From Myxococcota bacterium (GTDB lineage Bacteria; Myxococcota_A; UBA9042): a stretch of DNA of 30,183 nucleotides. The notes under the pieces were generated by a model. That model was given only the letters and a program-made list of their open reading frames with translations, was not told where the DNA came from and did not search any database. The stretch covers positions 1 to 30,183 of the forward strand of contig CAXRHS010000812.1 of NCBI GenBank assembly GCA_964230235.1, given 5' to 3'. Of the stretch, positions 14,461 to 29,234 are shown in pieces (the first letter of the stretch is position 1; each line of letters begins with the position of its first letter). A program made the translations under genes and the position numbers.

Positions 14461-16146
14461 ATGGCTATCACCGACTTTGCCCTCGACGCCGACTTCGAAG
14501 CGGAATTTCTCGAGTGGGAAAAAACCCAGAACGTCATCGAGGGCGAGATCGTCCGCGGCACCGTGCTGTCGGTCAACAAAGACTTCGTCATCGTCGACAT
14601 CAAGTACAAAAGCGAGGGTCAGATCCCGGTCGCTGAGTTCGCCGAGCACGACGGCACCCTGTCGGTGCACCCGGGCGACGAGATCGACGTCTACGTCGAG
14701 AACCGCGAGAACGAAAACGGCCTGGTCGAACTGAGCAAAGAGAAGGCCGATCGCCTCAAGATCTGGGACGAGATCGCCGACGCTTGCGAAAAAGAAGAAC
14801 TCGTCGAAGGCGTCATCACCGGGCGCGTCAAAGGCGGCCTCACGGTCGACATCGGCGTCAAGGCGTTCTTGCCGGGCAGCCAGGTCGATCTGCGGCCGGT
14901 GCGCAACCTCGAGAAGTACATCGGTCAGCGTTTCCACTTCAAGGTCATCAAGTTCAACAAGAAGCGCGGCAACATCGTGCTCAGCCGCCGGGCACTGCTG
15001 GAGAAGCAGCGCGAGGCGCTCAAAAGCCAGACGCTCGGCAAGCTCGAAGTCGGTATGGTGGTCGACGGCATCGTCAAGAACATCACCGACTACGGCGCGT
15101 TCATCGATCTGGGCGGCATCGATGGGCTTTTGCACATCACCGACATGAGCTACGCGCGGGTCAACCACCCGTCGGAGCTGTTTGAGGTGGGTCAAGAGGT
15201 CAAGGTCAAGGTGCTCAAGTACGACGCCGATCGCGAGCGCGTCAGCCTGGGGCTCAAGCAGAACTTCGAAGACCCGTGGATGTCGATCGACAGCAAGTAC
15301 CACATCGGTCAGCGCTGCAAGGGCAAGGTGGTGAGCCTGGCCGACTACGGCGCCTTCATCGAACTCGAAGGCGGCGTCGAGGGCCTGATTCACATCAGCG
15401 AGATGAGCTGGACCAAGCGCGTCAAGCACCCGAGCAAGGTGTTGAGCATTGGCGACGACGTCGAAGCGGTGATCCTGGAAATCGACGGCAAAGGCAAGCG
15501 CATCTCGCTTGGCATGAAGCAGATCGAGCAGAACCCGTGGGACGTGCTGATGCACACCTACCCGGTGGGCAGCAAGGTCAAAGGCACCGTGCGCAACATC
15601 ACCAACTTCGGCGTCTTTATCGGCATCGAAGACGGCATCGATGGCCTGTGCCACGTCACCGACCTGAGCTGGTCGAGCAAGGTCAAGCACCCGCAAGACA
15701 TCTTCAAGAAGGGCGACGAGGTCGAGGCGGTGGTGCTGGCCATCGACCCGGAGAAGGAGCGCTTCAGCCTGGGTATCAAGCAGTTGCTGACGGACCCGTG
15801 GTCAGACGTGCAGCGCCGCTACGGCCGCGGGTCGAGCCACGAAGGCAAGGTCGCCAAGCTGCTCGACTTTGGCGCCATCATCGAGCTCGACGACTGCATC
15901 GAAGGCTTCTTGCACATCAGCGAGATCGCCGAAGAGAAGGTGGAGAACATCCACAACGCGCTCAAGGAAGGCCAGACCGTCAAGGTCAAGATCATCAGCG
16001 TTATCCCCGAAGAGCGCAAGCTGGGTCTGTCGATCAAGCGCGTGGGCAACGACGACGATGAGTCGAACTTTGAGAACCCGGTTGCCGGCCCCACCACCAT
16101 CGGTGACCTGGTCAAAGAGAAGTTCGGCAACCTGCGTCTGAACTGA
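14461..16146 (+). CDS. rpsA: 30S ribosomal protein S1
   Basis: Six S1 domains; GYKSEG-like N-terminus, AFLPGSQVDLRP, YGAFIDLGGIDGLLHITDMS, EGLIHISEMSW; 561 aa. Confidence 0.98.
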   Translation: MAITDFALDADFEAEFLEWEKTQNVIEGEIVRGTVLSVNKDFVIVDIKYKSEGQIPVAEFAEHDGTLSVHPGDEIDVYVENRENENGLVELSKEKADRLKIWDEIADACEKEELVEGVITGRVKGGLTVDIGVKAFLPGSQVDLRPVRNLEKYIGQRFHFKVIKFNKKRGNIVLSRRALLEKQREALKSQTLGKLEVGMVVDGIVKNITDYGAFIDLGGIDGLLHITDMSYARVNHPSELFEVGQEVKVKVLKYDADRERVSLGLKQNFEDPWMSIDSKYHIGQRCKGKVVSLADYGAFIELEGGVEGLIHISEMSWTKRVKHPSKVLSIGDDVEAVILEIDGKGKRISLGMKQIEQNPWDVLMHTYPVGSKVKGTVRNITNFGVFIGIEDGIDGLCHVTDLSWSSKVKHPQDIFKKGDEVEAVVLAIDPEKERFSLGIKQLLTDPWSDVQRRYGRGSSHEGKVAKLLDFGAIIELDDCIEGFLHISEIAEEKVENIHNALKEGQTVKVKIISVIPEERKLGLSIKRVGNDDDESNFENPVAGPTTIGDLVKEKFGNLRLN

Positions 16147-16211
16147 GCAATTCTGCGGCAAGGCCGCGCGCCAGCGACGAATTTTGCGCTGGTGCGCGGC
16201 CCTGGCCGCCG

Positions 16212-16220
16212 TGGTACACT
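16212..16220 (+). promoter_or_regulatory. Extended -10 promoter candidate for the giant Cys-rich gene
   Basis: TG-G-TACACT, 18 nt upstream of ATG 16239. Confidence 0.45.
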
Positions 16221-16238
16221 GCCGGCCTGCATCGCGCG

Positions 16239-19200
16239 ATGCGCGCGCTCGGCTCGGTCGTGCCCCCCTCTTACGCCGCATACCGACATGGTCGCGCGGA
16301 CCGTCTCGCGTCACGGTCGGGGTGGCTGTGGCTGGCCGTCGCCGTCGCATGCGGCGGGCCGGCGAACCCGCCCGCCACTGCCAGCAAAGACGCGACCGAC
16401 GCCGGGCTGCCGGGCGACGCGACCGCTGTGGTCGGCCCCGATGCGACCGTCGCGCCCGACGGCGCGGTGGTCTGTCGCGCGGCCGGTTGCCCGTGCAGCC
16501 AGCACAACACCTGCGACACCGCCTGCGTCGAGCGCCGCGACGGCACCCAGCAGTGCGCCGCTGCGTGCAGCACCAGCAAGGACTGCCCTTACGGCGAAAT
16601 CTGCGAATTGGTCGCCGGCGCCAAGGTGTGCGTCGATTCGACGCTGACCCTGTGCGATCCGTGCGACACCCAGAACGATTGCAAGGCACCAGGTGCACCC
16701 GGTGCTGCATGCGTGGCCTGGCCCGACGGCGGTGGCCGCTGCGGGGTCAAGTGCCTGAGTTCGACCGACTGTCCGCCGGAATTCGCGTGCGAAGAGGTCA
16801 GCACCACCAGCGGCGCTGTGGCCAGGCAGTGCATGCCGACCGCTGCAGCGTGTGCCTGTTCGCCGCGCGCGGTGCAAAAAAAGCTGTCGAGCACCTGTTC
16901 GGTTGTCAACAGCGCCGGCAAGTGCCAGGGCAAGCGCACTTGCAGCGCAGGTGGCCTCTCGCCGTGCGACGGGCCAGAGCCCAAGGCCGAGTTGTGCAAC
17001 GGCCTGGACGACAACTGCAACAACGCGACCGACGACGGCGCGTCGTGCGACGACCTGAACCCATGCAGCAACGACCTGTGTTCGGGCAAGGCTGGCTGTA
17101 CCCACAGCGACGCCATTGAGGCCTGCGACGACGACAACCCCTGCACCACCGATAGCTGCGACAAGGCGACCGGTTGCGCGCACACCGACCAGCCCGGCTG
17201 TGTGGTCAAACTGCCGTACAAGCAGCCCTTTGCGTGCGGCAGCAAGCCGGCTTGGGAGGTGTCGGTCGCACCGCCGGGTTCGCCACGCTGGGGGTTGGAT
17301 GCCGCGCCCGCTCTTGGGGTGTTCACGCCCGGTTACAAGTCGCCGTACTGCTCGCTGAACTTCAACTTGGGGCCGTCGCTACAGTGCGCGCCCGATGGCG
17401 CCGATGTCTCCGGCACCGCGACCAGTCCGTGGTTCTCGACAGCGGGTCTTGGCGTGGAATCGGCGTTGGCCGTGCACTATTGGCTCGCGGGCACCTGGCG
17501 CACCCAGGATGTGCTTTCGCTGCAAGTGCAAGCCAAGGGTCAGACCGCCTGGCAAACCGTGCAGACCCACGAAGGCGGTGCGCTCGGCGGTGCCTGGCAA
17601 CGCCACACCGTCAAGCTGCCGGCGCCGACACCGGCGTCTTTTCGGCTGCGCTGGCTCATGCACGCGCCCGATTGCGCCAAAGCCGCCAACCTGACCGGAC
17701 CGTTTGTCGACGACATCGAGGTCAAGGACGCCTTCTGCAAGAAGGCCGGCGACTGCGACGACGACAACCCGTGCACCGGCGACGTGTGTGTGCCAGCCAA
17801 CAAGCTGTGCAACCACAAGCCGCTCAGCGGCGGTAGCTGCAGCGACGACAATCCGTGCACGCTGCAAGACGCCTGCAAGCTCGGTGTCTGCCAGGGCAAG
17901 CCGGCGCTGGGCGGCGTTTGCGACGACGGCAACCCTTGCACGGTCGGCGAAAAGTGCAGCGCAGGCGAATGCAACGGCAGCGACTGGACCGGGGCATGCG
18001 ACGACGGCAACCCGTGCACCGCCAGCGACAACTGCAAAGCCGGCGTTTGCGCGGGCAGCCCGGCCAAAACGTGCGACGACAAGAACCCGTGCACCTATGA
18101 TGTTTGCGACCTGTCCACCGGACAGTGCGCGGCTGCTGCCGCCGGCGAAGGTCAGAGTTGCGACGACGGCGACCCGTGCAGCGACCTCAGCCTGTGCCAC
18201 GCCGGAACCTGCGTGGCGCGGTTTGCCTGCGACGACAAGAATCCGTGCACCCAAGACTACTGTGCGGGCTCCAGTTGCTCGCACTTCAAGGTGCTCGCCG
18301 GCACCGCGTGCAGCGACGGCACCGCGTGCAGCGAACCCGACCTGTGCACGGCCGCCGGCAAGTGCGAAGGCGCCGCAGTCGCGTGTGCCACCATCCAGCA
18401 AACCAAGGTGACGTGCTCGGACGTGTCCGACGGCTGGTCGCTGCCCGAAGCGGCGACGGGCGAGGCGGCCTGGCGGATCGTGGCGGTACCCGAGACCGCC
18501 GGCCAGGGCTGCGCGCTGGCGTTTTCGGACGGCATCGGGCTCTCGTGCTCTGGCCAGCCCAAGCTGACCGGCACTGCGGCATGGACCGTTGACCTGCTCG
18601 GCCAGGAGCGCCCAGTGCTGCGGTTGCAAAGTCTGAACGCCGTAGGCAAAGACCCCAAGGTGCATCTGCGCTGGATCGACGTGGCCGTACCTGGCCCGGC
18701 CGGCCTGGTCATCACTCCGCTTGCGCTGCTGACCAACGACGATGACCCGCCCGGCGTGTGGCGGCCGCTGCGCTACGATCTGTCGGCCTGGAAGGGAAAG
18801 CAGATTCAGGTGCGGCTGGTGTTCGACTCGGTCGGTTGTCCCGAGACGCCTGGACTTGGCTGGCTGGTGCGCGACCTTGCGATCGAGTCCGGCAGTGGCC
18901 AGGCATGCGTGCTAGCCAAGGACTGCGACGACGCCAACGCCTGCACGGTCGACCTTTGCCTGCAAAGCGGCGCATGCAGCCACATGCCGCAGTCGGGCAC
19001 CTGCCAGGACGGCACGGCCTGCACCACCGCGGATAGCTGCACCGCGGCCGGCGACTGCGCACCCGGAAAGCCGACGCCCTGCGACGACAAAGACGTGTGC
19101 ACGCTCGACGCCTGCCTTGCTGTCAAAGGCTGCGTGTTTTCACCGCGGCCCGACGGCGATCCTTGCCCGGATGGCAACGCCTGTACGGTCGGTGACTTCT

Positions 19201-22200
19201 GCATCAATGGGCTTTGTGTCGTGCGCGACAAGTGCGACGACGGCAACCCTTGCACCAAAGACAACTGCGTCGCGGGCGGCACCTGCCTGTGGGACAAGGT
19301 CAACGGCGGCGCCCCCTGTGACGACGGCAGCCCGTGCACCAGCAACGATCACTGCTCGATGGGCGCCTGCGTTGGCAAGCCGGCGCCGTGCGCCATTGCT
19401 TGGCAAAACCCGCTCGACTGCGGGGACGCGTGGCAGCTTGCGCCGCTGCCGGCGCCCGGCACGGTGTCTTTTGCCATCGACGGCACGCCGGCGCCGCCGG
19501 CTGCCAAAGGTGGGGCTTGTTCGCTCAACGTCAACGACGGCGTGGCGCTGCCGTGCGCCAACGGGGTCGCCGGCAAGGCCAGTGCCACCAGTGCGCCGAT
19601 CCCGCTCGCCGGCCTCGCCAATCCGGCGCTGTGGCTGTGGAGCTGGCACGACGTCGGCACCGGCGCCAACCAGAACCTGCGGGTGCTGGAGGTCAGCGCC
19701 GACGGCTTTCAGACCGTGCCCATTGCGCTGTGGCAAGACAACGCCACAGGGTCCAAGGTGTGGCAGCGCGTGCGCGTCAACCTAGCAAAACTCAACGGCA
19801 AAACCGTCCAGCTGCGCCTGCGCTGGGCTGGCCTGAATTGCACAGCCCAATCGGGCAAGGGCTGGTTTGTGGACGAACTGCAAGTCGTGTCGTCCAAACC
19901 CGACCTGTGCAAGTCCAGCGCCCAATGCGACGACGGTGAGCCGTGCACCGATGGCCTGTGCGAATTCGGCATGTGCCTGCACCTGCCCAACCAGGTCACC
20001 TGCACAGACGCCGATGCGTGCACGGTGGCCGACCAGTGCTGGAAGGGCGGGTGTGTCGGCAAGCCCAAGGAGTGCAGCGACGGCAACCCCTGCACGCTCG
20101 ACAGTTGCGACCCGGCGACCGGTTGTTCGTCGGTGACCAAGGTCGACGGCAGCAAGTGCGACGACGGCAACTCGTGCAGCGGGCCCGACGCGTGCACCGG
20201 TGGTGTTTGCGGGGGGCCGACCGTGGTGGCCGATGGCGCACCGTGCAGCAGCCCGGCGCTGTGCACCAAGGGACAGACCTGCTTCAAGGGCAAGTGCCAG
20301 TCCGGCACCATGACCCCAGACGGCACCGGCTGCGACGACGGCAACCCCTGCTCGCTGGCGAGCACCTGCGAAAACAGCGTGTGCAAGGCCGGCCTGCAAA
20401 GTGCCTGCGACGACGGCGAGCCCTGCACGCTCGATCTGTGCGAAACGACCGGCGAAGGACTGTCTGGCTGCACCCACAGCGACTTGCAAAATGGCACGAT
20501 CTGCGATGACGGCGATCCCTGCACCACAAAGACCGCATGCTTACACGGGATTTGCGAGGGCGCCGCGGTCGACAGTTGTGTGGCCCTGGCCGCCAGCAGC
20601 TTTGACAACTGCGCCGCGCCGCCAACGTGGGAGTTTGACCCGGTGGTCAGCGGCATCGGCTGGAAAGTGGACGCGTTGCCGGCCGCGCCCACGCCGCACT
20701 CGGCCCCGTGCAGCCTGAACTACAACAACGACAGCAACGTCGACATCGGCGTGCCGATCAAGGGCGCGGTCACGTTGCCGGTGGTGCAGGTGCCGCTGCA
20801 GGGATCGGCGCAGTTGGCTCTTTTCTCGTGGCACGACGGCGACGTCAGCGGTCTCAAAGACAAGCGCACGATTGAGGTGTTCTTGCCGGGTTCGACCATC
20901 GTGCAAGAGCTTATCCAACTGCCCAACCACTTGCGGCGCGGCCGTTGGAGCAAGGTGCGGGTACCGCTGCACAAATTCGCCGGCAAGGCCATCATCGTCA
21001 AGCTGCGCTACGACACCGTCGACCAGTTTGACAACGAGACGCCCGGTTGGTTCGTGGACGACTTGCGCTTGCAGGTGGCGCAGCCGACCACCTGCAGCAA
21101 CGATGCCGCGTGCGCCCAGCCCAAAGACCCGTGCAAGCCGACCAAATGCATCGCCAATGGCTGCGTGCCGACCCCGCTGCAGGGCGAGTGCGACGACGCC
21201 AACGCTTGCACGGTCGCTACCACTTGCCAGCAAGGCCAATGTCTCGGCCAGGCCAAAGACTGCGAGGACGGCTACGCCTGCAGCGCCGACCTGTGCGACG
21301 TCGGCCTGGGCTGCTACTACAAGCTCATCGACAACTGCGGCGAAGTGACCCTGCCATTTGAAGCGACGTTTAGTTGCGGCGATCCGGCCAATACCTACTG
21401 GCAGCGTGACGCCGCGCTGGTGCCGGGCGCGCCGGCCTGGGCAATGGATGGGTCGCCGGCGGTGCCGCCGCCGCTGTCGCCCGATTGCTCGCTCAACTTC
21501 AACGACGGCGCGCACACCGCGTGCCCGGCGGGCGTGACCAAGCTGGACCAGTACGCGGTGTCGCCGCTGATTTCGCTGCAGGGTCTCAAGTTCGGTACGC
21601 CAGTCAAAGCGCGCATCAACGTCGCCGGCACCTGGCAACCCGCGCAAGGCGAGTCGGCAACGCTGGAACTGCAGCCGCTCGGCAACAGCAAATGGACGCT
21701 GCTGGCGACGCTCCAACCCTCGACCGCGTGGACCGCGAGCGAGTTTGACCTGTCGCAGTGGGGCGGGCTCAAGGTCAAGCTGCGGCTGCGCTTTGCCAGC
21801 GCGTGTCAGGCCGGATCGGGCGCGGGCAGCGGGCCGTTTATCGACGACGTGCAAGTGTTTGACGCCTCGTGCAAATCGAGCAGTGTGTGCAACGACGGCA
21901 ACCCGTGCACCGCCGATGTCTGCGACCTCGCGAGCGGCGTGTGCAAAGCCGACGGCCAGAGCGGCGCGGTTTGCGACGACAGCAACCCGTGCAGCGTCAA
22001 CGATGTGTGCGTGGTCGGCCAGTGCCTCGGCAACCCCAAGCCGTGCGACGACGGCAAGCCGTGCACCGCCGACACCTGCGACCCCAACAACGGGCAGTGC
22101 GCGGCGCCGCCGCTACCCGACGGCAGTGCCTGCAACGACGGCCAATCGTGCACCACCGGCGATCTCTGCACCGCCACGCTGTGCAGCGGCAAGGCCAAGG

Positions 22201-22463
22201 CCGACGGCAGCCCATGCAGCGACAGCAACCCATGTACCAACGACGACGGCTGCACCAAGGGCGTGTGCGCGGGCGGCGGGATGGAGCCTGATGGCAGCTT
22301 GTGCACCGACGGCAATCCGTGCACGGCGGGCGATGCGTGTGCCAAAGGCAAGTGCGCCGGGGGCAAGAATGCCTGTGATGATGGCGATCCGTGTACGGAA
22401 GACTTGTGCACGCCGGTCGGCTCGGTGGGCAAGAAGTGCGAGAGTAAGAAGAGTTGTCCTTGA
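16239..22463 (+). CDS. Giant Cys-rich surface lipoprotein: about 30 CDDGNPCT-type repeats, one MopE-like motif, five jelly-roll-like modules
   Basis: Lipobox-like WLWLAVAVAC; ELCNGLDDNCN; ~32 CxD(G/D)xxC(T/S) units counted by eye; five ~170-aa Cys-poor modules ending G(P/W)(F/L)(V/I)(D/R)D. Confidence 0.85.
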   Translation: MRALGSVVPPSYAAYRHGRADRLASRSGWLWLAVAVACGGPANPPATASKDATDAGLPGDATAVVGPDATVAPDGAVVCRAAGCPCSQHNTCDTACVERRDGTQQCAAACSTSKDCPYGEICELVAGAKVCVDSTLTLCDPCDTQNDCKAPGAPGAACVAWPDGGGRCGVKCLSSTDCPPEFACEEVSTTSGAVARQCMPTAAACACSPRAVQKKLSSTCSVVNSAGKCQGKRTCSAGGLSPCDGPEPKAELCNGLDDNCNNATDDGASCDDLNPCSNDLCSGKAGCTHSDAIEACDDDNPCTTDSCDKATGCAHTDQPGCVVKLPYKQPFACGSKPAWEVSVAPPGSPRWGLDAAPALGVFTPGYKSPYCSLNFNLGPSLQCAPDGADVSGTATSPWFSTAGLGVESALAVHYWLAGTWRTQDVLSLQVQAKGQTAWQTVQTHEGGALGGAWQRHTVKLPAPTPASFRLRWLMHAPDCAKAANLTGPFVDDIEVKDAFCKKAGDCDDDNPCTGDVCVPANKLCNHKPLSGGSCSDDNPCTLQDACKLGVCQGKPALGGVCDDGNPCTVGEKCSAGECNGSDWTGACDDGNPCTASDNCKAGVCAGSPAKTCDDKNPCTYDVCDLSTGQCAAAAAGEGQSCDDGDPCSDLSLCHAGTCVARFACDDKNPCTQDYCAGSSCSHFKVLAGTACSDGTACSEPDLCTAAGKCEGAAVACATIQQTKVTCSDVSDGWSLPEAATGEAAWRIVAVPETAGQGCALAFSDGIGLSCSGQPKLTGTAAWTVDLLGQERPVLRLQSLNAVGKDPKVHLRWIDVAVPGPAGLVITPLALLTNDDDPPGVWRPLRYDLSAWKGKQIQVRLVFDSVGCPETPGLGWLVRDLAIESGSGQACVLAKDCDDANACTVDLCLQSGACSHMPQSGTCQDGTACTTADSCTAAGDCAPGKPTPCDDKDVCTLDACLAVKGCVFSPRPDGDPCPDGNACTVGDFCINGLCVVRDKCDDGNPCTKDNCVAGGTCLWDKVNGGAPCDDGSPCTSNDHCSMGACVGKPAPCAIAWQNPLDCGDAWQLAPLPAPGTVSFAIDGTPAPPAAKGGACSLNVNDGVALPCANGVAGKASATSAPIPLAGLANPALWLWSWHDVGTGANQNLRVLEVSADGFQTVPIALWQDNATGSKVWQRVRVNLAKLNGKTVQLRLRWAGLNCTAQSGKGWFVDELQVVSSKPDLCKSSAQCDDGEPCTDGLCEFGMCLHLPNQVTCTDADACTVADQCWKGGCVGKPKECSDGNPCTLDSCDPATGCSSVTKVDGSKCDDGNSCSGPDACTGGVCGGPTVVADGAPCSSPALCTKGQTCFKGKCQSGTMTPDGTGCDDGNPCSLASTCENSVCKAGLQSACDDGEPCTLDLCETTGEGLSGCTHSDLQNGTICDDGDPCTTKTACLHGICEGAAVDSCVALAASSFDNCAAPPTWEFDPVVSGIGWKVDALPAAPTPHSAPCSLNYNNDSNVDIGVPIKGAVTLPVVQVPLQGSAQLALFSWHDGDVSGLKDKRTIEVFLPGSTIVQELIQLPNHLRRGRWSKVRVPLHKFAGKAIIVKLRYDTVDQFDNETPGWFVDDLRLQVAQPTTCSNDAACAQPKDPCKPTKCIANGCVPTPLQGECDDANACTVATTCQQGQCLGQAKDCEDGYACSADLCDVGLGCYYKLIDNCGEVTLPFEATFSCGDPANTYWQRDAALVPGAPAWAMDGSPAVPPPLSPDCSLNFNDGAHTACPAGVTKLDQYAVSPLISLQGLKFGTPVKARINVAGTWQPAQGESATLELQPLGNSKWTLLATLQPSTAWTASEFDLSQWGGLKVKLRLRFASACQAGSGAGSGPFIDDVQVFDASCKSSSVCNDGNPCTADVCDLASGVCKADGQSGAVCDDSNPCSVNDVCVVGQCLGNPKPCDDGKPCTADTCDPNNGQCAAPPLPDGSACNDGQSCTTGDLCTATLCSGKAKADGSPCSDSNPCTNDDGCTKGVCAGGGMEPDGSLCTDGNPCTAGDACAKGKCAGGKNACDDGDPCTEDLCTPVGSVGKKCESKKSCP

Positions 22464-22471
22464 GCCTGAGG

Positions 22472-22488
22472 GCTCGCCCTCGGCGAGC
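22472..22488. terminator. GC hairpin between convergent genes
   Basis: GCTCGCC-CTC-GGCGAGC, 7-bp stem, weak T-run downstream. Confidence 0.35.
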
Positions 22489-22527
22489 GGGCTGCTTTGT
22501 GACTCACGCGGGTCGTGGAACCTGTCG

Positions 22528-22824
22528 TCAAGCCGCCCGCGGAAGCACTTCGGCAGCAATGCGAGCGGCGGCACGATCGCTCTGCAATTCCAGATCATAG
22601 CGCGACTGAAGGTTCATCCAGAACGCCGCTGAGCAGCCAAAATAGCGCGAGAGCCGCAAGGCTGTGTCCGCCGTGATGCCACGGGTGCCATGCACGACTT
22701 CGTTGATGCGGCGCGGCGGGACAGCCAGCGCTTTTGCCAGCGCGTACTGGGAGAGCTTGAGCGGTTCAAGAAAGTCGAGCGCCAGTACCTCGCCAGGGTG
22801 AATTGGGGCGTGTTTCGTCGTCAT
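22528..22824 (-). CDS. higA: HigA family addiction-module antitoxin (Xre HTH)
   Basis: PIHPGEVL...FLEPL.LSQ..LA.AL.VP..RINE.V.G.R.ITADTALRL.RYFG.SA.FWMNLQ..YDL. Confidence 0.95.
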   Translation of the reverse strand: MTTKHAPIHPGEVLALDFLEPLKLSQYALAKALAVPPRRINEVVHGTRGITADTALRLSRYFGCSAAFWMNLQSRYDLELQSDRAAARIAAEVLPRAA

Positions 22825-22832
22825 TGGGTCCC

Positions 22833-22877
22833 CTAGTGGTAGTCGACCAGTTCGACGGATTCAGCACAGGCCGGCGT
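22833..22877 (-). pseudogene. higB: 3' remnant of higB toxin
   Basis: Last codons read TPACAESVELVDYH*, matching the characteristic HigB C-terminus (V)EIVDYH; stop is 8 nt before the higA ATG. No room for the rest of the gene before 22919. Confidence 0.75.
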
Positions 22878-22897
22878 TCCCCGGCGGACCGGCGCAA

Positions 22898-22919
22898 TGC
22901 GTGCAGGCCGAGGTTCGGC
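22898..22919 (-). other. Left-arm-like fragment of an integron attC site
   Basis: GCCGAAC overlapping the FGE-gene stop, then 5 nt, then CCTGCAC; no matching right arm. Confidence 0.35.
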
Positions 22920-23962
22920 TATTGCGCAGAGCGAGCGCACCGAAACCCCTGCGTTGGCAGTGCCGCAGCCGCGAATACCACAGTCCTTTGGGATGCCCTC
23001 AGTTGCTTCGCGCTGTCGGCCTGGTAGTCGCCGCCGCGCCAAACCCGCAGGTTGGTCACCGGTGGCCCTGTTGGGCCGTAGTTGGGTGACTTTGCGTAGA
23101 AACCAGCGTCGAACCAATCATTGACCACCTCCCGGACGTTGCCGGCCATATCATACAGGCCGTAGCCATTGGGGCCGGCAGTGCCTACTGGCCGGGTGCC
23201 GTCGAGAGTGCACGCTGCACTGCCGTCATCCCACACGGCCGAGTTTTGAGCGCAGGGCGAACAGCTGGGCGCCAGATTGCCCCAGGGAAACTTGGCACCC
23301 ACCAGTCCGCCGCGAGCGGCCTTTTCCCACTCCGCCTCTGTGGGCAGGCGGCCTTGAGGGTGCGCCCATTTGCAGTACTGGTGAGCCTGAAACCACTCGA
23401 CGCAGTTGACGGGATGATGCCATTTGCCCTGGGCGTGCCAATTGCAGTGGTTGCCCTTGCCGGCGGGCATCCCGCACGCTCCTACCTCAACGCAGATTTT
23501 GTAAGCCGCATAGGTAACCTCAAAGACGTCGATGTAGAATGCCTCCAGGTAGACTTCGTGTTGCGGATTCTCAGAAGGTTCGCAGTCGCCATCGCCGGGC
23601 ACGCAGCCCATCAGGAATTTGCCAGCCGGAATCATGACCATTTCCCCGGGTATGGCGCTGGCGTCTGGCTGGATCTCCTTGGAGCAATCTGCCGTTATGG
23701 CGGCGTCCTTGCCAGGCGCGACGCCCGCGGCGTCCGCTTGCGCGCATGAAGCGCAGGTGTTCCCGTCCGTCACTGCCTCAATTTGGTCGACGCGATCTTC
23801 GCTGTCCGTCGTCCGAGGGCTGGCCACGGATTTGGCATCGCTGCCGCTCACGATAGCGGCCGGGTCGCTTACGGTTGCGATCGGTTCCGTGCAATTGGCG
23901 AGTGCCGTCAGGCAGGCGAGTGCTGCCGCGTGCAATCTCGGCCTGGCGTGCGTCGCAGTCAT
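22919..23962 (-). CDS. Formylglycine-generating-enzyme (FGE/SUMF1) domain lipoprotein
   Basis: IPAGKFLMG, E.PQHEV.L..FYID..EVT, HPVNCVEW.QA..YC.W, RLPTEAEWEKAARGG, NGYGLYDMAGNV.E, RGG; signal LACLTALANC. Two sampled 60-nt lines are 58% and 48% GC versus 73% for a clpB line. Confidence 0.9.
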   Translation of the reverse strand: MTATHARPRLHAAALACLTALANCTEPIATVSDPAAIVSGSDAKSVASPRTTDSEDRVDQIEAVTDGNTCASCAQADAAGVAPGKDAAITADCSKEIQPDASAIPGEMVMIPAGKFLMGCVPGDGDCEPSENPQHEVYLEAFYIDVFEVTYAAYKICVEVGACGMPAGKGNHCNWHAQGKWHHPVNCVEWFQAHQYCKWAHPQGRLPTEAEWEKAARGGLVGAKFPWGNLAPSCSPCAQNSAVWDDGSAACTLDGTRPVGTAGPNGYGLYDMAGNVREVVNDWFDAGFYAKSPNYGPTGPPVTNLRVWRGGDYQADSAKQLRASQRTVVFAAAALPTQGFRCARSAQ

Positions 23963-24230
23963 GTTCGCTCTGGTCGACGAACCGCTACCCGCAACATCAG
24001 CCTAACAGACCCAGTTGGCCTTGGCGACGCGAGCATTTGGCAATCGCGGTCCACCTCACGCCGCACGCCGCCACCGCACCTTGACCCCCAACAACGCCAC
24101 CCCAATCGTGCGCGCGGGCGGTGCCAGCGTCCCCACACCCAGTTGGCGTCGCCATCAGGGTCTCCAAGCGCGCCATGTCCGCGGCCTTTACAGAATCGCC
24201 TTGAGATGAGGTCAAACCAACCGTCAGGAG

Positions 24231-24273
24231 GGAGCGACGAGTCGGCTTGCAAAGCCGCGAGTTTGCGACCCAC
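24231..24273 (-). repeat. REP-like structured repeat, copy 2
   Basis: Reverse complement GTGGGTCGCAAACTCGCGGCTTTGCAAGCCGACTCGTCGCTCC; 3 differences in 43 nt from copies 1 and 3. Confidence 0.88.
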
Positions 24274-24339
24274 TGAGCAAGCACAAACAGCCAATGTCGA
24301 TGACCTCGGGTCATCGCAATCCTGTATGGTATCGGCCTT

Positions 24340-24684
24340 CTAATCGGAACCGGCCCTTGCCAGGACCGTCCAGGCAGTCGCGTCACCCCTGCACAATTCA
24401 AAGATCTCGGCCAGCCCAGCGCGAATTGCCGCTGCCGACTGCGCAACAGTGCAGTTGCCGATATCCAGGTGCACCACCCACGGCGGTGGCACCTGCGCAG
24501 CCGCAAGATCGACGAAGTCCCAGTCCTTGCTCACGATGACCATTGCATTTGCGCGCTCGTGCTCCCACACACGCAGATCGTCGCGGCCGCGCAGGCCAAT
24601 GTCGCGCACATGAACCGCCTCGACCACTCCGGCGAGCAGGCGCGGCAAGCGCGGTGATAGGTTCTCATCGAGCAGCAGCCTCAC
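24340..24684 (-). CDS. DUF5615 family PIN-like toxin (VapC45-type)
   Basis: MRLLLDENLS, HVRDIGLRG..D..VW, VIVSKD.DF. Confidence 0.9.
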   Translation of the reverse strand: MRLLLDENLSPRLPRLLAGVVEAVHVRDIGLRGRDDLRVWEHERANAMVIVSKDWDFVDLAAAQVPPPWVVHLDIGNCTVAQSAAAIRAGLAEIFELCRGDATAWTVLARAGSD

Positions 24685-24917
24685 GCAGCACGCCGCAACT
24701 GCACCGCTTCGCGGCGGGCCGCGAAGGCCAAGCAGGCCATCACGTCATCGTGGGTCAGGTCGGGAAAGTCACTGACGATGGCCTCGGCCGACATCCCTGC
24801 CGCCAAGTACGAAAGCACGTCGTATACGGTGATACGCGTCCCGCGCACGCACGCCTTGCCGCTGCGGCGACCGGGTACGACTTCGATTCGGTCCATCCAG
24901 GCGAGGGCGTCCGGCAT
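24681..24917 (-). CDS. DUF433 family antitoxin (VapB45-type)
   Basis: RI...P...SGKAC.RGTRI.V.DVL..LA.GMS.E.I..DFP.LT..D..ACL.FAA; 4-nt overlap with DUF5615. Alternative start 24896. Confidence 0.92.
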   Translation of the reverse strand: MPDALAWMDRIEVVPGRRSGKACVRGTRITVYDVLSYLAAGMSAEAIVSDFPDLTHDDVMACLAFAARREAVQLRRAA

Positions 24918-24954
24918 CTGGCACCTGTGGCGAGGTGGACTCGCCGGCAGCCGC

Positions 24955-24984
24955 AGTGTGATGAAACGCCCGCGGTCGCGTCAA
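24955..24984 (-). promoter_or_regulatory. Candidate leftward promoter of the DUF433/DUF5615 operon
   Basis: Minus strand TTGACG (24984-24979)-N18-CACACT (24960-24955). Confidence 0.45.
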
Positions 24985-25426
24985 GGAAGCTCGCCGACCT
25001 CCCGACAAGCATACACCCGTCCTTGACACCGCCCGCCACCATCGAAGCCGAGTCCGCGGCGGCGGTCGCGCAGTTTCGGCGGGCCGCAAAAGACAATCGG
25101 TTCGAGGATATCGGGCGCGCGGCCGGGCTTTTGCGGTGGCGCAGACCTGTGCCCGCCGGGAGGCGACGATGCAGGACAAGCTGACCAACAACGCGCAGAT
25201 GGCGCTCCAGTTCGCCGGCGAAGAGGCGATTCGCAAAAGCCACCAGTTCTTGGAGCCCGAGCACATCCTGTGGGCGCTGTGCGGCAATGTGGACGGCATG
25301 GTCAAGCCGTTGCTGGCGCGCCTGGAAGTGCCGGCGGAGCCCACGGGCGACGAGATGGCGCGCGAAATCGCCTGCTTGCCGCCGGTCAATGCCCAGTCGG
25401 GGCCGCGGTTGGTGGGCGCAGAGCGG
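24974..25426 (+). repeat. 453-bp diverged direct repeat of the clpB promoter, leader and first 86 codons (copy A)
   Basis: Aligns at a constant +1483 offset to 26457-26909; coding part about 33 differences in 258 nt (manual count). Confidence 0.95.
25169..25426 (+). pseudogene. clpB: clpB 5' fragment (86 codons); frame continues without homology to a stop at 25483
   Basis: [38 protein letters not shown]...LVGAER, then abrupt loss of similarity. Confidence 0.9.
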
Positions 25427-25624
25427 CCCTGTCGTGCCGCGTCAGGCCGGCGCGTTGGCGGTGGTCGCATACCTGGCGGCTGAACTCCTTGCGGTACTGG
25501 TCTCGGACGCGGTGGACTCGGGCCCAGGGTTGCGCGCGGTTGCCCGCAAGACGGCCCGCGTTTGGCACCGGTCTGCGTGCCTGCTACCCTTTGACGGCGC
25601 CCGACGGCGCCAGGGCAATTGGCC

Positions 25625-25870
25625 ATGCGTTACACCGTGCTGCTGGAGCCAACCCGTGAACTGGATCAGCCCGGCTGGTACTACGCGCGCATTCCAGCGC
25701 TCGATTTGACGACGCATGGCCTTGGCGTCGAGGGTGCACTCGCTGCCGCCCGCGATCTGGCAGACGTTTGGTTGCAGGCGCTAGCCGATCAAGGTGTGGC
25801 AGCTCCGGCCGATACGACTGCGTTTGTGGGTCACGTCGAGGCGGGTGGCCATGCCGTTCTCCGCGGCTGA
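25625..25870 (+). CDS. hicB: Short HicB family antitoxin
   Basis: MRYTVLLEP.......[21 protein letters not shown]....WL; 81 aa with no C-terminal DNA-binding domain. Confidence 0.88.
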
Positions 25871-26057
25871 TTTGGTGCGGCGCCTGGAGCGCCTAGGCTT
25901 TGTGCGGGTACGCCAGTCTGGCTCGCATCTGGTGCTGCGTCATCCGGATGGCCGCATGACCTACGTTGCCATGCACCGCGGCGATGTACCAAACGGCACG
26001 CTGCGGGCGATTTTGCGGCAGGCCAAGTTGACCGAGGAAGAGTTGCGCGATGGCTAG
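25851..26057 (+). CDS. hicA: HicA family mRNA interferase toxin
   Basis: [28 protein letters not shown]...GTL..IL.QA.L; overlaps hicB by 20 nt. Confidence 0.93.
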
Positions 26058-26192
26058 CGACTGCGCCCAGGTCGTCAGCCGACGTCCATCAACCGTTGTG
26101 AATTGAGCTCCACGGCTTGGGGCCCGTTCGGCTTCCACGAAGGGCCCGTGAAAAATCTACTCGATTTTCCACTGGGCCCGTTTGCTGGTTCC

Positions 26193-26238
26193 GTGGGTCG
26201 CAAGCTCGCGTCTTTGCAAGCCGACTCGCCGCTCCGCT
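26193..26238 (+). repeat. REP-like structured repeat, copy 3, preceded by two GGGCCC-anchored hairpins
   Basis: Identical to 1349-1394; upstream GGGCCCGTTCG...CGAAGGGCCC and GGGCCCGTGAAAAAT...ATTTTCCACTGGGCCC. Confidence 0.9.
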
Positions 26239-26315
26239 ACTCGGCATGGCGATCGAGTTATTCTTACACGGACCCCAACGCACGCAAGGCCGGCCGCAAA
26301 CCTACCCTGGCCATG

Positions 26316-26407
26316 CAGGCTCAGGCTCTGGCTGCCTTTCAGAAACTGCCGCCGCCAGGGTCAGCCTTTCGAGGGGCTGCCGGTCAGGCTCAGGAACAGG
26401 GGCATGG
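26316..26407. repeat. Degenerate, interrupted copy of the (A/T)CAGGC hexamer array
   Basis: CAGGCTCAGGCTCTGGCT (26316-26333) and CAGGCTCAGGAACAGGGGCATGG (26385-26407). Confidence 0.55.
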
Positions 26408-26456
26408 TCAAGAACCCGCAATCCCGCTCGGGGCTGTCCAAACGGGTCGCTGCACA

Positions 26457-26909
26457 GGTCGCGTCAAGCAAGCTCGCCGACCTCCCGACAAGCATACACC
26501 CGTCCTTGACACCGCCCGCCCCCATCCTAGCCTAGTCCCCGGCGGCGGTCGCACGGTTCCTGCCTGCCGCAAAAGACAATCGGTTCGCGGGCATCGGGCC
26601 CACGACCGGGCTTTTGCGGCGGCGCAGACCTGTGCCCGCCGGGAGGCGACGATGCAGGACAAGCTGACCAACAACGCGCAGATGGCGCTCAAGCTCGCCG
26701 GTGAAGAGGCGATTCGGCGCAGCCACCAGTTCTTGGAGCCAGAGCACATCTTGTGGGCGCTGTGCGGCAACGTCGATGGCGTGGTCAAGCCCCTGCTCGC
26801 GCGCCTGGAAGTGCCGGTGGAGCCGTTGCGCGACGAGATGGCCCGCGAAATCGGCCGCTTGCCGGCAGTCAAGGCGCAGTCCGGGCCGGGGTTGGTGGGT
26901 TCGGAGCGG
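26457..26909 (+). repeat. Copy B of the 453-bp repeat (functional clpB 5' region)
   Basis: See copy A. Confidence 0.95.
26506..26533 (+). promoter_or_regulatory. sigma70-type promoter of clpB
   Basis: TTGACA (26506-26511)-N16-TAGCCT (26528-26533); the same -10 hexamer occurs at 29336. Confidence 0.6.
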
Positions 26910-29234
26910 TTGCAAGCGTTCTTTGAAGCCGCAGATGAAGAGCGCGGCAAGTTCAAAGACGACTACGTGTCGACCGAGCACCTGCTGCTGGCGATGCTGG
27001 CGGACCGCAAAGGTGCAGCTGCCAAGGCGCTGGCCGACCGCGGCCTGACCCGCGAGAAAATCCTGACCGCGCTCAAGCCCTTGCGCGGCTCGGCGCGGGT
27101 CGACAGTCAAGAGGCCGAAAGCCAGTTCCAGGCGCTGGAGAAGTACGCCCGCGATCTGACCGCCGTCGCCGCCCAGGGCAAGCTCGACCCGGTGGTCGGC
27201 CGCGACGACGAGGTGCGGCGGGTGATGCAGGTGCTGAGCCGCCGCCGCAAGAACAACCCGGTGCTGATTGGCGAACCCGGCGTGGGCAAGACCGCGATTG
27301 TCGAGGGTCTGGCGCAGCGCATCGTCCAAGGCGACGTGCCCGAGGGGCTGCGCGGCAAAAAGCTGCTGGCCCTGGATCTGGCGTCGATGGTCGCCGGCAG
27401 CAAGTACCGCGGCGAGTTCGAAGAGCGCCTCAAGGCCGTGCTCAAGGAGCTGGCCGACGCCCAGGACCAGGTCATCCTGTTCATCGACGAGCTGCACAAC
27501 CTGGTCGGCGCCGGCAAAGGCGAAGGCAGCATGGACGCCAGCAACATGCTCAAGCCGGCGCTGGCGCGCGGCGAGTTGCACTGCATCGGTGCCACTACGC
27601 TCGACGAATACCGCAAATACATTGAGAAAGACGCTGCGCTGGAGCGGCGCTTTCAGCCCGTGCACTGCGAAGAGCCGAGTGTGGCCGACACCATCAGCAT
27701 CTTGCGCGGGCTCAAGGACAAGTACGAGACCCACCATGGCGTGCGCATCCAGGACGCGGCGTTGATCGCGGCGGCGACGCTCTCGCACCGCTACATCGCC
27801 GACCGCTTCCTGCCCGACAAGGCCGTGGACCTGATGGACGAGGCCGGCAGCCGCTTGCGCATGGAGATCGACAGCCTGCCGACCGAGATCGACCAGTTGC
27901 AGCGGCGCATCCAGCAGCTGGAAATCGAGCAGGCTGCGCTGGGGCGTGAGGACGACGCGGCCAGCAAGGATCGGCTGGCGTCGTTGCAGGCGGAGATGGC
28001 CGGGCTCAAAGAGACGGCCACCGGCAAGCGCGCGGCCTGGCAGAACGAAAAGAAGCTCATCGACGGCATCCGCGCGCTCAAGGCCCAGGTCGAGGACAAG
28101 CAACACGCGCTCGAAGCGGCCCAGCGGCGCTACGACAACGAGACGGCGGCGAAGCTCCAGTACGGCGAGATTCCGCAGCTCAAAAAGCAGATTGCAGACG
28201 CGCAGCAAAAGCTCGCGGAACTGCAAGCCAATGGTGCCATGCTGCATGAGGAGGTCACCGCCGACGAAGTGGCCAAGGTGGTGTCGGCGTGGACCGGCGT
28301 GCCGGTGACCAAGATGCTCGAGAGCGAAATGGCCAAGCTCTTGCACTTGGAAAGCCAGCTGTCCAAGCGGGTTATCAACCAGCAAGAGGCGATCGAAGCC
28401 GTCGCCAACGCGGTGCGGCGGTCGCGCTCGGGCCTGCAGGACCCCAACCGGCCGCTTGGCTCGTTCATCTTTCTGGGACCGACCGGCGTCGGCAAGACCG
28501 AGCTGGTCAAGGCGCTGGCCGCGTTCTTGTTCGATGACGAAGCTGCGATGGTCCGCATCGACATGAGCGAGTACATGGAGAAACACAGCGTGGCCCGGCT
28601 GATTGGCGCCCCGCCCGGCTACGTCGGCCACGAAGAAGGCGGCCAGCTGACCGAAGCCGTGCGCCGTCGGCCGTACAGCGTGGTGCTTTTCGACGAAATC
28701 GAGAAGGCGCACGCGGACGTGCTCAATGTGCTACTGCAACTGCTCGACGAAGGCCGGCTGACCGACAGCCAGGGCCGCCAGGTCGATTTTCGCAATACGC
28801 TGGTGCTGCTGACCAGCAACATCGGCAGCTCGCTCATCTTGCAGGCCAAGGGCGACACGGCGGTTAAGTCCGTGGTCCAGGACGAGCTGCGCCGGCACTT
28901 CCGGCCAGAGTTCTTGAACCGCATCGATGAGGTGGTGGTGTTCAACGCGCTGCGCCAGCAGGACATGGTGCACATCGTCGACATCCAGCTGCAGCGCTTT
29001 CGCGCCCGGCTCGCGGATCGCAAGCTCGGCCTGACCGTGACCGACGAGGCCAAAAAGCTGCTCGCCGACGAGGGCTATGACCCGCACTTTGGCGCGCGGC
29101 CGCTCAAGCGCACGCTGCAGAACCGCCTGGAGAACCCGCTGGCCAAGGAGATTCTGGGCGGACGCTTTCCGCCGGGCGCGCACGTGGTGGTCGACGCCCG
29201 CGATGGCGAGATTGCCTTTGTGTATGCCGACTAG
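26652..29234 (+). CDS. clpB: ATP-dependent chaperone ClpB
   Basis: Clp N domain, [34 protein letters not shown], coiled-coil middle domain, [41 protein letters not shown] 26652 follows GGGAGG; 860 aa. Confidence 0.97.

What the first reader, a model, noticed from the sequence alone, without database searches (positions are those of the whole stretch)
24974..26909. hicBA bracketed by two diverged alleles of the clpB 5' end: a gene-anchored cassette that may rebuild its target
Seen: a 453-bp direct repeat (24974-25426 and 26457-26909, constant 1483-bp offset) covering promoter, leader and 86 codons, with sharp ends. The 1030 bp between hold hicBA, hairpins and the REP-like element. Manual count in the coding part: about 33/258 nt differ, about 15 synonymous versus 13 non-synonymous codons, no stops or frameshifts. 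Established: neutral decay of a duplicate gives mostly non-synonymous changes, and elements that integrate into genes carry a replacement fragment. Inference: the two copies diverged largely as functional clpB alleles in different lineages. A donor piece carrying hicBA plus its own clpB 5' end then recombined in, displacing the resident 5' end and tying the heat-shock disaggregase promoter to a TA module. Recombination between the repeats would excise a 1483-bp hicBA circle whose loss the TA would penalise.
Basis: partly seen in the sequence, partly recalled or inferred. Interest (0 to 1): 0.78.

Follow-up and report, generated by a model that had tools for sequence, protein, structure and literature searches.

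The report
Old duplication scar around hicBA cassette
A small toxin-antitoxin gene pair sits in front of the heat-shock gene clpB between two copies of that gene's promoter and first 86 codons; the right copy is the working one and the left is a decaying leftover, so this is an old insertion scar of a kind already described for restriction-modification genes, not a cassette that carries its own working clpB start.

Summary
There is a 453-bp direct repeat (24974-25426 and 26457-26909, offset 1483) with 52 mismatches, no indels and sharp ends. hicB, hicA and repeat elements fill the 1030 bp between the copies. The structure is not a misassembly: per-run contigs from two independent studies bridge both junctions at even depth.

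Copy B matches relatives as well as the rest of clpB does, and dS to the nearest relative is even along the whole gene. All 13 amino-acid changes lie on copy A's branch, 11 of them at positions invariant or nearly so in the genus. A's private changes fall 14:7 on codon positions 1+2 versus 3, the neutral ratio, against 0:10 for B plus the nearest relative.

Related contigs show the single-copy empty site, and only this genome among 37 in the family has the duplication. No recombinase is present. The closest known kind is 'insertion with long target duplication', described for restriction-modification units. This scan has noted the same scar around toxin-antitoxin cassettes on other DNA. A second case, a PIN cassette between 488-bp repeats, lies in this genome.

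The parts
24974..25426 (+). Copy A: relic of the clpB promoter, leader and codons 1-86
   Evidence: 88.5% identical to copy B with no indels. It has 31 private changes in the quartet against 8 for B, and its -10 box is lost.
25169..25483 (+). Truncated open frame of copy A: 86 ClpB codons, then 18 unrelated codons and a stop
   Evidence: Single Clp_N hit, E 1.9e-6. No other protein like it in the 5.8-billion protein set.
25427..25624 (+). Single-copy spacer of unknown origin. I read a promoter/operator for hicBA in it (TTGACG, then GGCGCC-N4-GGCGCC, then GGCAAT just before the ATG); this is inferred.
   Evidence: No match elsewhere in the genome or in 40 relatives. Sequence read. The promoter scan tool found nothing at its threshold.
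25625..25870 (+). hicB antitoxin gene (81 aa)
   Evidence: 156 homologues, several named HicB family by their sources. It overlaps hicA by 20 nt. No Pfam or NCBIfam model hit.
25851..26057 (+). hicA toxin gene (68 aa)
   Evidence: PF07927 HicA_toxin, E 4.7e-18, profile positions 2-58 of 58.
26141..26279 (+). High-copy interspersed repeat of the REP/MITE type
   Evidence: About 300-370 copies in this genome and many in genus relatives. An inverted partner lies at 24190-24325 (I1).
26278..26389 (+). Second, low-copy repeat family
   Evidence: 6 other copies in the genome at 71-79% identity.
26457..26909 (+). Copy B: the working clpB promoter, leader and codons 1-86
   Evidence: 92.5% identical to the nearest relative against 87.3% for A. 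Zero replacements on its branch. Continuous in divergence with the rest of the gene.
26652..29234 (+). clpB (860 aa)
   Evidence: TIGR03346 chaperone_ClpB equivalog, 1315 bits against a cut-off of 1232.
24340..24917 (-). Neighbouring DUF433/DUF5615 (PIN-like) toxin-antitoxin pair, directly left of copy A
   Evidence: PF18480, E 4e-23, and PF04255, E 2.7e-22. Absent from the related contigs.

Best explanation
This is a fossil of one 'insertion with long target duplication'.

The event: a hicBA toxin-antitoxin cassette entered at the 5' end of clpB in one lineage of a probable Myxococcota bacterium. It carried no mobility gene. Repeat elements may have been added to it later. The event left 453 bp of the target (promoter, leader, first 86 codons) on both sides of the insert.

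The two copies: the right copy, continuous with the gene, has served as clpB's promoter and start ever since. The left copy lost its function at the event and has drifted neutrally. It has lost its -10 box and gained 13 replacements at conserved positions. Some stretches have been kept identical to B, most likely by gene conversion.

How the event happened (inferred): the two junctions, 25426|25427 and 26456|26457, were probably made in one of two ways. One is recombination anchored by homology in clpB with an illegitimate join at codon 86 (homology-facilitated illegitimate recombination or a Campbell-type crossover). The other is a replication template switch. The data do not separate these.

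Today (inferred): hicBA probably runs from its own promoter/operator. Loss of the toxin-antitoxin pair by recombination between the repeats would have been penalised. This explains why an otherwise unstable duplication lasted long enough to diverge by 11.5%.

Shown here: the structure, its correct assembly, the empty site, the decay of A and the integrity of B. Inferred: the joining mechanism and the stabilising role of hicBA.
For: - Structure and counts.
- Correct assembly in two independent studies. Contigs L021-L023.
- Empty site: G005:C328 and ENA contigs L128/L129 run lipoprotein-FGE-DUF2281-clpB with one copy of the segment, aligned from 25016/26499 onward.
- Only this genome of 37 in the family has two copies.
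- Decay of A. Quartet private sites are A 31 (codon positions 10/4/7, noncoding 10), B 8 (coding ones all position 3) and the relative 5 (all position 3). There are 13 non-synonymous changes on A's branch against 0 on B's. The -10 TAGCCT is kept in B, G005 and G003 but is AAGCCG in A.
- B belongs with the gene. Identity to G003 is 0.888 for codons 1-86 against 0.885 for the rest, and to G010 0.818 against 0.797. dS to the G005-type gene is 0.39, 0.42, 0.47 and 0.35 along the gene.
- A and B share 42 nt upstream (24974-25015, 1 mismatch) that G005 and G003 lack. Informative sites favour AB|G5G3 by 8 to 4 to 2.
- The ratio of position-3 to position-1+2 differences between A and B is 17:16. One neutral and one constrained copy starting identical would give about 1:1 (my calculation).
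- Patchy identity: identical runs of 70 and 51 nt, permutation P 0.006 and 0.0005. One strain variant of A is B-like at 25234-25237.
- No recombinase lies between the repeats.
- The kind is in print for restriction-modification units, with repeats up to 423 bp that often span a start or stop codon and leave the target intact (PMC2853133).
Against: - A's branch omega by NG86 is 0.43, not 1. With 13 non-synonymous and 9 synonymous codons, strict neutrality is only borderline (about p 0.06-0.1). Part of A's synonymous divergence may predate the event; my point estimate is about a quarter.
- The best ML tree puts A outside (B, G005, G003) with weak support (80/75). The A+B clade is not rejected (p-AU 0.21).
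- No indel in about 36 substitutions is somewhat unexpected for a pure pseudogene.
- The source of the 1030-bp insert is unknown.
- The closest HicB relatives (83%, 76%, 73%) sit at other loci and show no such scar.
- The nearest 'relative' contig is far closer to this window (FGE 95%, clpB 92%) than the two genomes are overall (about 80%). Exchange or binning therefore blurs the time scale.
Confidence: 0.65

Rival explanations
1. A piece or circle carrying hicBA plus its own functional clpB 5' end came from a diverged lineage and crossed into clpB. One copy is then a foreign allele that evolved under selection elsewhere, and the 1483-bp unit can still leave and re-enter.
For: The layout is the product expected of a single crossover of a circle holding the 453-bp segment plus cargo. 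dS between A and B (0.36) is as large as that between B and the nearest relative (0.39). A's omega of 0.43 leaves room for a period under selection. The ML tree places A outside B+G005+G003. Identical runs of 70 and 51 nt would still allow homologous excision.
Against: Every replacement is on A's branch and at positions conserved across the genus. A's -10 box is destroyed. B is native-like and continuous with the gene. A and B share a 42-nt upstream stretch that sister lineages lack. No other genome of 37 in the family has a second clpB start. No A-like protein exists in 5.8 billion proteins. No circle or deletion joint appears in the contigs. hicBA relatives share only their open reading frames with this cassette, not its flanks.
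Confidence: 0.15
2. A whole-gene tandem duplication of clpB was followed by deletion of most of the upstream copy. hicBA and the repeat elements then inserted independently into the gap.
For: It gives the same fragment-insert-intact gene order and the same decay of the upstream copy. Tandem duplications are common in bacteria (general knowledge).
Against: It needs three events instead of one. Nothing in the 1030 bp matches the DNA downstream of clpB, as a tandem junction should, at least within the contig. The left end of the repeat lies only 195 nt before the start codon.
Confidence: 0.08
3. This is the remnant of a site-specific integrative element that targeted the 5' end of clpB and brought a replacement promoter and N-terminus, as SXT does at prfC and the dusA islands do. 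The integrase and most of the cargo were later deleted.
For: [quoted passage not shown] A toxin-antitoxin pair promotes the maintenance of SXT (PMC2654960, title and abstract listed).
Against: There is no integrase or excisionase between the repeats or nearby. The copy in use is native-like, not divergent. The homology runs 453 bp on both sides of any possible core. The family search found no element at clpB in 36 other genomes.
Confidence: 0.04
4. The structure is an assembly artefact that joins two strains.
For: The genome is a fragmented metagenome bin (1170 contigs), and a second clpB allele is present in run X1.
Against: Both junctions are bridged without mismatch by independent per-run contigs in two studies, at even depth. 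The junctions share no long word that could mislead an assembler.
Confidence: 0.01

Closest known systems
Insertion with long target duplication of restriction-modification gene units (Nobusato et al. 2000; Furuta, Abe and Kobayashi 2010, PMC2853133)
   Same: A small 'addiction' gene unit with no mobility gene lies between long direct repeats (up to 423 bp in print) that align with a single copy at an empty site in a relative. The repeats often span a start or stop codon so that the target gene stays intact.
   Different: The cargo is a type II toxin-antitoxin pair, not a restriction-modification system. Of the 7 held papers that carry both terms, I read two, and both have the phrase only in their reference lists; none was seen to describe the scar for such pairs. 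Here the scar is old: the repeats are 11.5% diverged and one copy has decayed. The authors' suggested link to DNA breakage by the cargo cannot apply to an mRNA-cutting toxin.
Homology-facilitated illegitimate recombination and Campbell-type insertion-duplication
   Same: One end is anchored by homology and the other joined illegitimately. This has been proposed to explain displaced gene fragments next to newly acquired modules in T6SS and Rhs loci (PMC5361080).
   Different: The process has not been observed here. The donor arrangement (hicBA directly upstream of clpB) has not been found.
[quoted passage not shown]
   Same: The target gene stays expressed after an insertion into its 5' end.
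   Different: Those elements carry an integrase and a short att core, and their replacement N-terminus is divergent. Here there is no integrase, and the copy in use is the native-like one.
Earlier notes of this scan on toxin-antitoxin cassettes between duplicated gene ends (for example a pyrC promoter and 5' end, 124-134 bp)
   Same: Same layout: gene fragment, cassette, intact gene, and no recombinase.
   Different: Those are unchecked AI notes on other genomes. This case has the longest repeat among those listed, and its direction of decay is worked out.

Membership tests
Insertion with long target duplication (criteria of Furuta et al. 2010) | Direct repeats longer than 30 bp flank the insert | tested here: met
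   453 bp, 88.5% identical.
Insertion with long target duplication (criteria of Furuta et al. 2010) | Both repeats align with one copy at an empty site in a related genome | tested here: met
   G005:C328, L128/L129 and G003:C208 hold one copy, aligned over 411 of the 453 nt. There is one copy in each of the 35 other family genomes that had a match.
Insertion with long target duplication (criteria of Furuta et al. 2010) | Insert under 20 kb with no mobility gene or other mobile element | tested here: inconclusive
   The insert is 1030 bp and its only genes are hicB and hicA. It also holds two interspersed repeat elements, which may be later arrivals.
Insertion with long target duplication (criteria of Furuta et al. 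2010) | Cargo is a restriction-modification system | tested here: not met
   The cargo is HicA/HicB. This is therefore the same scar with another class of cargo.
Integrase-driven elements targeting a gene's 5' end (SXT/prfC, dusA islands) | Tyrosine integrase and excision factor inside the element | tested here: not met
   No such gene lies between or beside the repeats.
Integrase-driven elements targeting a gene's 5' end (SXT/prfC, dusA islands) | The promoter and N-terminus in use are the element's own, divergent ones | tested here: not met
   Copy B is 98% identical in protein to the nearest relative and matches the rest of the gene in divergence.
HicAB type II toxin-antitoxin | HicA toxin domain | tested here: met
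   PF07927, E 4.7e-18, full profile length.
HicAB type II toxin-antitoxin | Adjacent HicB-family antitoxin | tested here: met
   81-aa product with 156 homologues, several named HicB family. It overlaps hicA by 20 nt. No Pfam or NCBIfam hit.
HicAB type II toxin-antitoxin | Toxicity of HicA and neutralisation by HicB | not testable with these tools
   Needs expression tests.
ClpB disaggregase | Full-length match to the ClpB equivalog model above its cut-off | tested here: met
   TIGR03346, 1315 bits against 1232.

The most novel reading that the evidence does not exclude
Small toxin-antitoxin cassettes may spread without any recombinase by a homology-anchored 'insertion-duplication'. Candidates here are hicBA, and in the same genome a PIN cassette between 488-bp repeats. 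In this reading the cassette travels with, or copies, the end of the gene it lands beside, so the target survives. The cassette's own addiction effect then blocks collapse of the duplication. The 1483-bp unit would be one frozen example of a general, still undescribed entry route for such modules.
Probability: 0.15. Interest if true: 0.7.

Novelty: new variant of a known kind. Interest (0 to 1): 0.38.

Why it matters
How toxin-antitoxin pairs move between and within chromosomes without mobility genes is poorly understood. This locus is a clean, correctly assembled case with a datable scar, a known empty site and a worked-out direction of decay. It shows the scar described for restriction-modification units around a classical toxin-antitoxin pair. 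It also suggests a testable role for the pair: protecting a long direct duplication from recombinational collapse. By itself it is a single old event in one lineage, with no sign of present mobility and no effect on clpB beyond a dead upstream copy. Its weight lies in adding to a pattern rather than in a new mechanism.

Tried and rejected
- Misassembly is rejected by the per-run contigs.
- A search for a lineage with an A-like allele found nothing: 37 family genomes, the 5.8-billion protein set queried with A's open frame (only itself), and the exact 28-mer of the shared upstream stretch in JGI metagenomes (none).
- A search of JGI metagenomes for close clpB relatives gave one, identical to G003's contig; the rest were at 48% or less.
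- An exact look-up of this ClpB returned nothing on record.
- hicB was sought in 107 genomes of the class. The only hit was a broken relic in G008, next to a dksA homologue.
- The flanks of the closest HicB relatives hold no long direct repeats, apart from REP copies around the G008 relic.
- Rfam found nothing credible in 24000-26800.
- The sigma-70 scan found nothing at its threshold. The -10 argument therefore rests on conservation in the alignment alone.
- The tree of 258 nt could not decide whether A is sister to B or sits just outside B+G005+G003.
- Joints in the contig lay-out were all between REP copies or inside conserved clpB. No joint skipped 1483 bp.
- Protein-complex and structure prediction were not used, because no claim here depends on them.
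Full report
OBSERVATION. The window is the whole of contig C812 of a fragmented metagenome bin (1170 contigs, 84% complete). The repeat is exactly as described. Copy A is 24974-25426 and copy B is 26457-26909, at a constant offset of 1483. There are 52 mismatches in 453 nt and no indels, and the flanks on both sides are unrelated. These are the only two copies in the genome.

ANATOMY. Copy B runs straight into an 860-aa clpB (26652-29234; TIGR03346, 1315 bits against a cut-off of 1232). Copy A's frame ends 18 codons after the repeat (25169-25483). The 1030 bp between the copies hold:
- a single-copy stretch of 198 bp of unknown origin;
- hicB (25625-25870) overlapping hicA (25851-26057; PF07927, E 4.7e-18). 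HicB has 156 homologues, several named HicB family;
- a repeat of the REP type (26141-26279) with about 300-370 copies in this genome and many in the genus;
- a second small repeat family (26278-26389).
Directly left of copy A, on the other strand, lies a DUF433/DUF5615 pair (24340-24917). Further left are another REP copy, in inverted orientation, and an FGE-sulfatase gene. Sources name the ClpB of relatives Myxococcales or Myxococcota.

ASSEMBLY. Five runs from an estuary study and one from an independent marine study hold over 90% of the sampled words of 24700-27200. Their per-run contigs cover 25178-26170 (A into the insert) and 26209-26499 (insert into B) with 0-1 differences. Depth is even: about 11-13 in X1 and 6-8 in X4 (the contigs themselves were fetched). 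The two junctions share no long word. A strain chimera is therefore excluded. No joint skipping 1483 bp was listed, but contigs drop rare forms.

EMPTY SITE AND DISTRIBUTION. Contig G005:C328 is collinear with the window from 15085 to 24106. Two ENA contigs are identical to it where they overlap (L128, L129). These contigs then carry about 700 bp of different spacer, holding a DUF2281 antitoxin-like gene and short tandem repeats. After that comes a single clpB promoter, homologous from 25016/26499 onward. They have no DUF433 pair, no copy A and no hicBA. Among 37 genomes of the family, only this one has two matches to the ClpB N-terminus. HicB was found in one other of 107 genomes of the class. 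That copy is a broken relic with two stops and no hicA, next to a dksA homologue and flanked by REP copies. The nearest HicB relatives in the large protein set (83% and 76%) lie in other contexts, one of them a toxin-antitoxin island beside uvrC. They share only the open reading frames with this cassette.

WHICH COPY IS WHAT. Copy B is 92.5% identical to the G005-type sequence and 85.2% to G003. Copy A is 87.3% and 79.3%. In the quartet A, B, G005, G003:
- A has 31 private sites: 10 noncoding, and 10, 4 and 7 at codon positions 1, 2 and 3;
- B has 8, and its 5 coding ones are all at position 3;
- G005 has 5, all at position 3.
The split of 14:7 for A is the neutral 2:1. Against 0:10 for B plus G005, Fisher's p is 4.6e-4.

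With an inferred ancestor, A's branch has 13 non-synonymous and 9 synonymous codon changes (omega about 0.43). B's branch has 0 and 7. Working genes in the genus give 0.03-0.09. Eleven of A's 13 replacements hit positions that are invariant or nearly so in 9 relatives: K14Q, L15F, R23K, L59T, R60G, R69C, A72P, K74N, G80R, S84A and V44M. The hexamer TAGCCT, 16 nt after TTGACA, is conserved in B, G005 and G003 and reads AAGCCG in A. The scan tool did not call any promoter here, so this point rests on conservation alone.

Copy B is as similar to relatives as the rest of clpB: 0.888 against 0.885 for G003 and 0.818 against 0.797 for G010. dS to the full G005-type gene is even along its length, at 0.39, 0.42, 0.47 and 0.35. 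The ML tree of the 258 nt places A next to B, G005 and G003 on a branch three times longer than B's (0.117 against 0.041). A+B as a clade is not rejected (p-AU 0.21). Informative sites favour AB|G5G3 by 8 to 4 to 2. A and B also share 42 nt at the left end of the repeat, with one mismatch, that G005 and G003 lack.

The A-B differences fall 17:16 on position 3 against positions 1+2. That is about what one neutral and one constrained copy give when they start identical. My point estimate leaves about a quarter of the time for divergence before the event, not significantly above zero.

PATCHES. The mismatches are clumped. Identical runs of 70 nt (25138-25207, from the leader to codon 13) and 51 nt (24987-25037) give permutation P of 0.006, and 0.0005 for the two together. 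A's private sites leave an 85-nt gap (P 0.018). One estuary contig (L022) is a strain variant of copy A that is B-like at 25234-25237 and A-like after that. Gene conversion between the copies is the simplest reading. It would also help to explain the absence of indels.

MECHANISM. The layout (truncated fragment, insert, intact gene with its own promoter) is what a single crossover of a circle carrying the 453-bp segment would give. The same layout would result from homology-anchored import with an illegitimate join at codon 86, or from a replication template switch. These cannot be told apart here. What can be said is:
- the copy in use is native-like;
- the displaced copy has been dead for most or all of its separate history;
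- no recombinase is present;
- the event is unique to this lineage among the genomes searched.

The kind is in print as 'insertion with long target duplication' of restriction-modification units. There the repeats reach 423 bp, related genomes hold empty sites, no mobility genes are present, and the repeats often span a start or stop codon so that the target stays intact (PMC2853133). [quoted passage not shown] I infer that recombination between two initially near-identical 453-bp repeats 1 kb apart would have removed hicBA quickly. Post-segregational harm from HicA is a plausible reason why it did not. This is untested.

CONTEXT IN THE SCAN AND IN THIS GENOME. Earlier notes of this scan describe the same scar around toxin-antitoxin cassettes in other genomes, one with a pyrC promoter and 5' end. 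They pointed me to the Nobusato/Furuta papers, which I then read. A screen of this genome for local two-copy direct repeats found a second case. On contig C228, 488-bp repeats at 89.1% identity bracket a DUF2281-like plus PIN_3 pair (PF13470, E 2.2e-16). On C189, a 144-bp pair surrounds two small overlapping genes without family hits. This recurrence is why I keep a modest probability for a general, recombinase-free entry route.

CAVEATS. The 258 coding sites give wide error bars. The nearest 'relative' contig is much closer to this window (FGE 95%, clpB 92%) than the genomes are overall (about 80% over 43 fragments). Exchange or binning may therefore distort relative ages. Synteny ends right after the clpB stop. 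The source of the insert is unknown.

VERDICT. The reading as two functional alleles and a cassette that rebuilds its target is not supported. The best reading is an old insertion with long target duplication around hicBA, with a decaying left copy.

Noticed in passing
G000 contig C228 (L122:187-674 and L122:1844-2331): A second case in the same genome. 488-bp direct repeats at 89.1% identity bracket a DUF2281-like plus PIN_3 toxin-antitoxin pair (L122:1229-1654, PF13470, E 2.2e-16). The repeat is part of a gene on the minus strand; its mismatches fall 28:13:12 by codon phase.
   Followed up: partly
G000 contig C189 (L124:907-1050 and L124:2028-2171): 144-bp direct repeats at 92% identity surround two small overlapping genes (79 and 100 aa) with no Pfam hit. 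This may be another cassette of the same sort.
   Followed up: partly
window 24190-24325 (inverted), 26141-26279, 1349-1394: An interspersed repeat of about 58-135 nt with roughly 300-370 copies in this genome and many in genus relatives. Many contigs begin or end in it, so it is probably a main cause of the fragmented assembly.
   Followed up: partly
window 26551-26575 and 26611-26635 (copy B), 25068-25152 (copy A): The clpB leader holds an inverted repeat (GCCGCAAAAG ... CTTTTGCGGC) and a block CAAAAGACAATCGGTTCG. Both are conserved in G005 and G003, so this may be a regulatory 5' UTR. No Rfam match.
   Followed up: no
L015:9214-9915 and L128:6205-6399: In the nearest related contigs the spacer before clpB holds an orphan DUF2281 antitoxin-like gene (E 1.9e-7) and tandem copies of GTCCGCACCCAATTGTTGTGG. 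The space upstream of clpB seems to be a turnover spot for small toxin-antitoxin genes.
   Followed up: partly
window 15085-24106 and 26499-29234 against G005:C328 / L128: This region is much closer to the G005-type contigs (FGE 95%, dS 0.13; clpB 92%, dS 0.4) than the two bins are overall (about 80% over 43 fragments). Synteny stops right after the clpB stop. Recent exchange or a binning error is possible.
   Followed up: partly
run X6 laid on window 24404-26129: A freshwater metagenome holds hicBA pieces at 100% identity but shows no depth over the DUF433/DUF5615 pair and copy A. It also carries a clpB allele with 27 differences in 758 nt. This may be a strain with another arrangement.
   Followed up: no
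L025 (G008:C31:1130-4363), hicB relic at L025:1489-1734: In a genus relative a hicB homologue (73% identity) is broken by two TAG stops and has lost hicA. It lies beside a dksA homologue between two REP copies in direct orientation.
   Followed up: partly
L022 (Logan contig), window 25234-25237 and 25345: Strain variants of copy A exist in the estuary population. One is B-like (GGCGC) at 25234-25237, and two carry C at 25345.
   Followed up: partly
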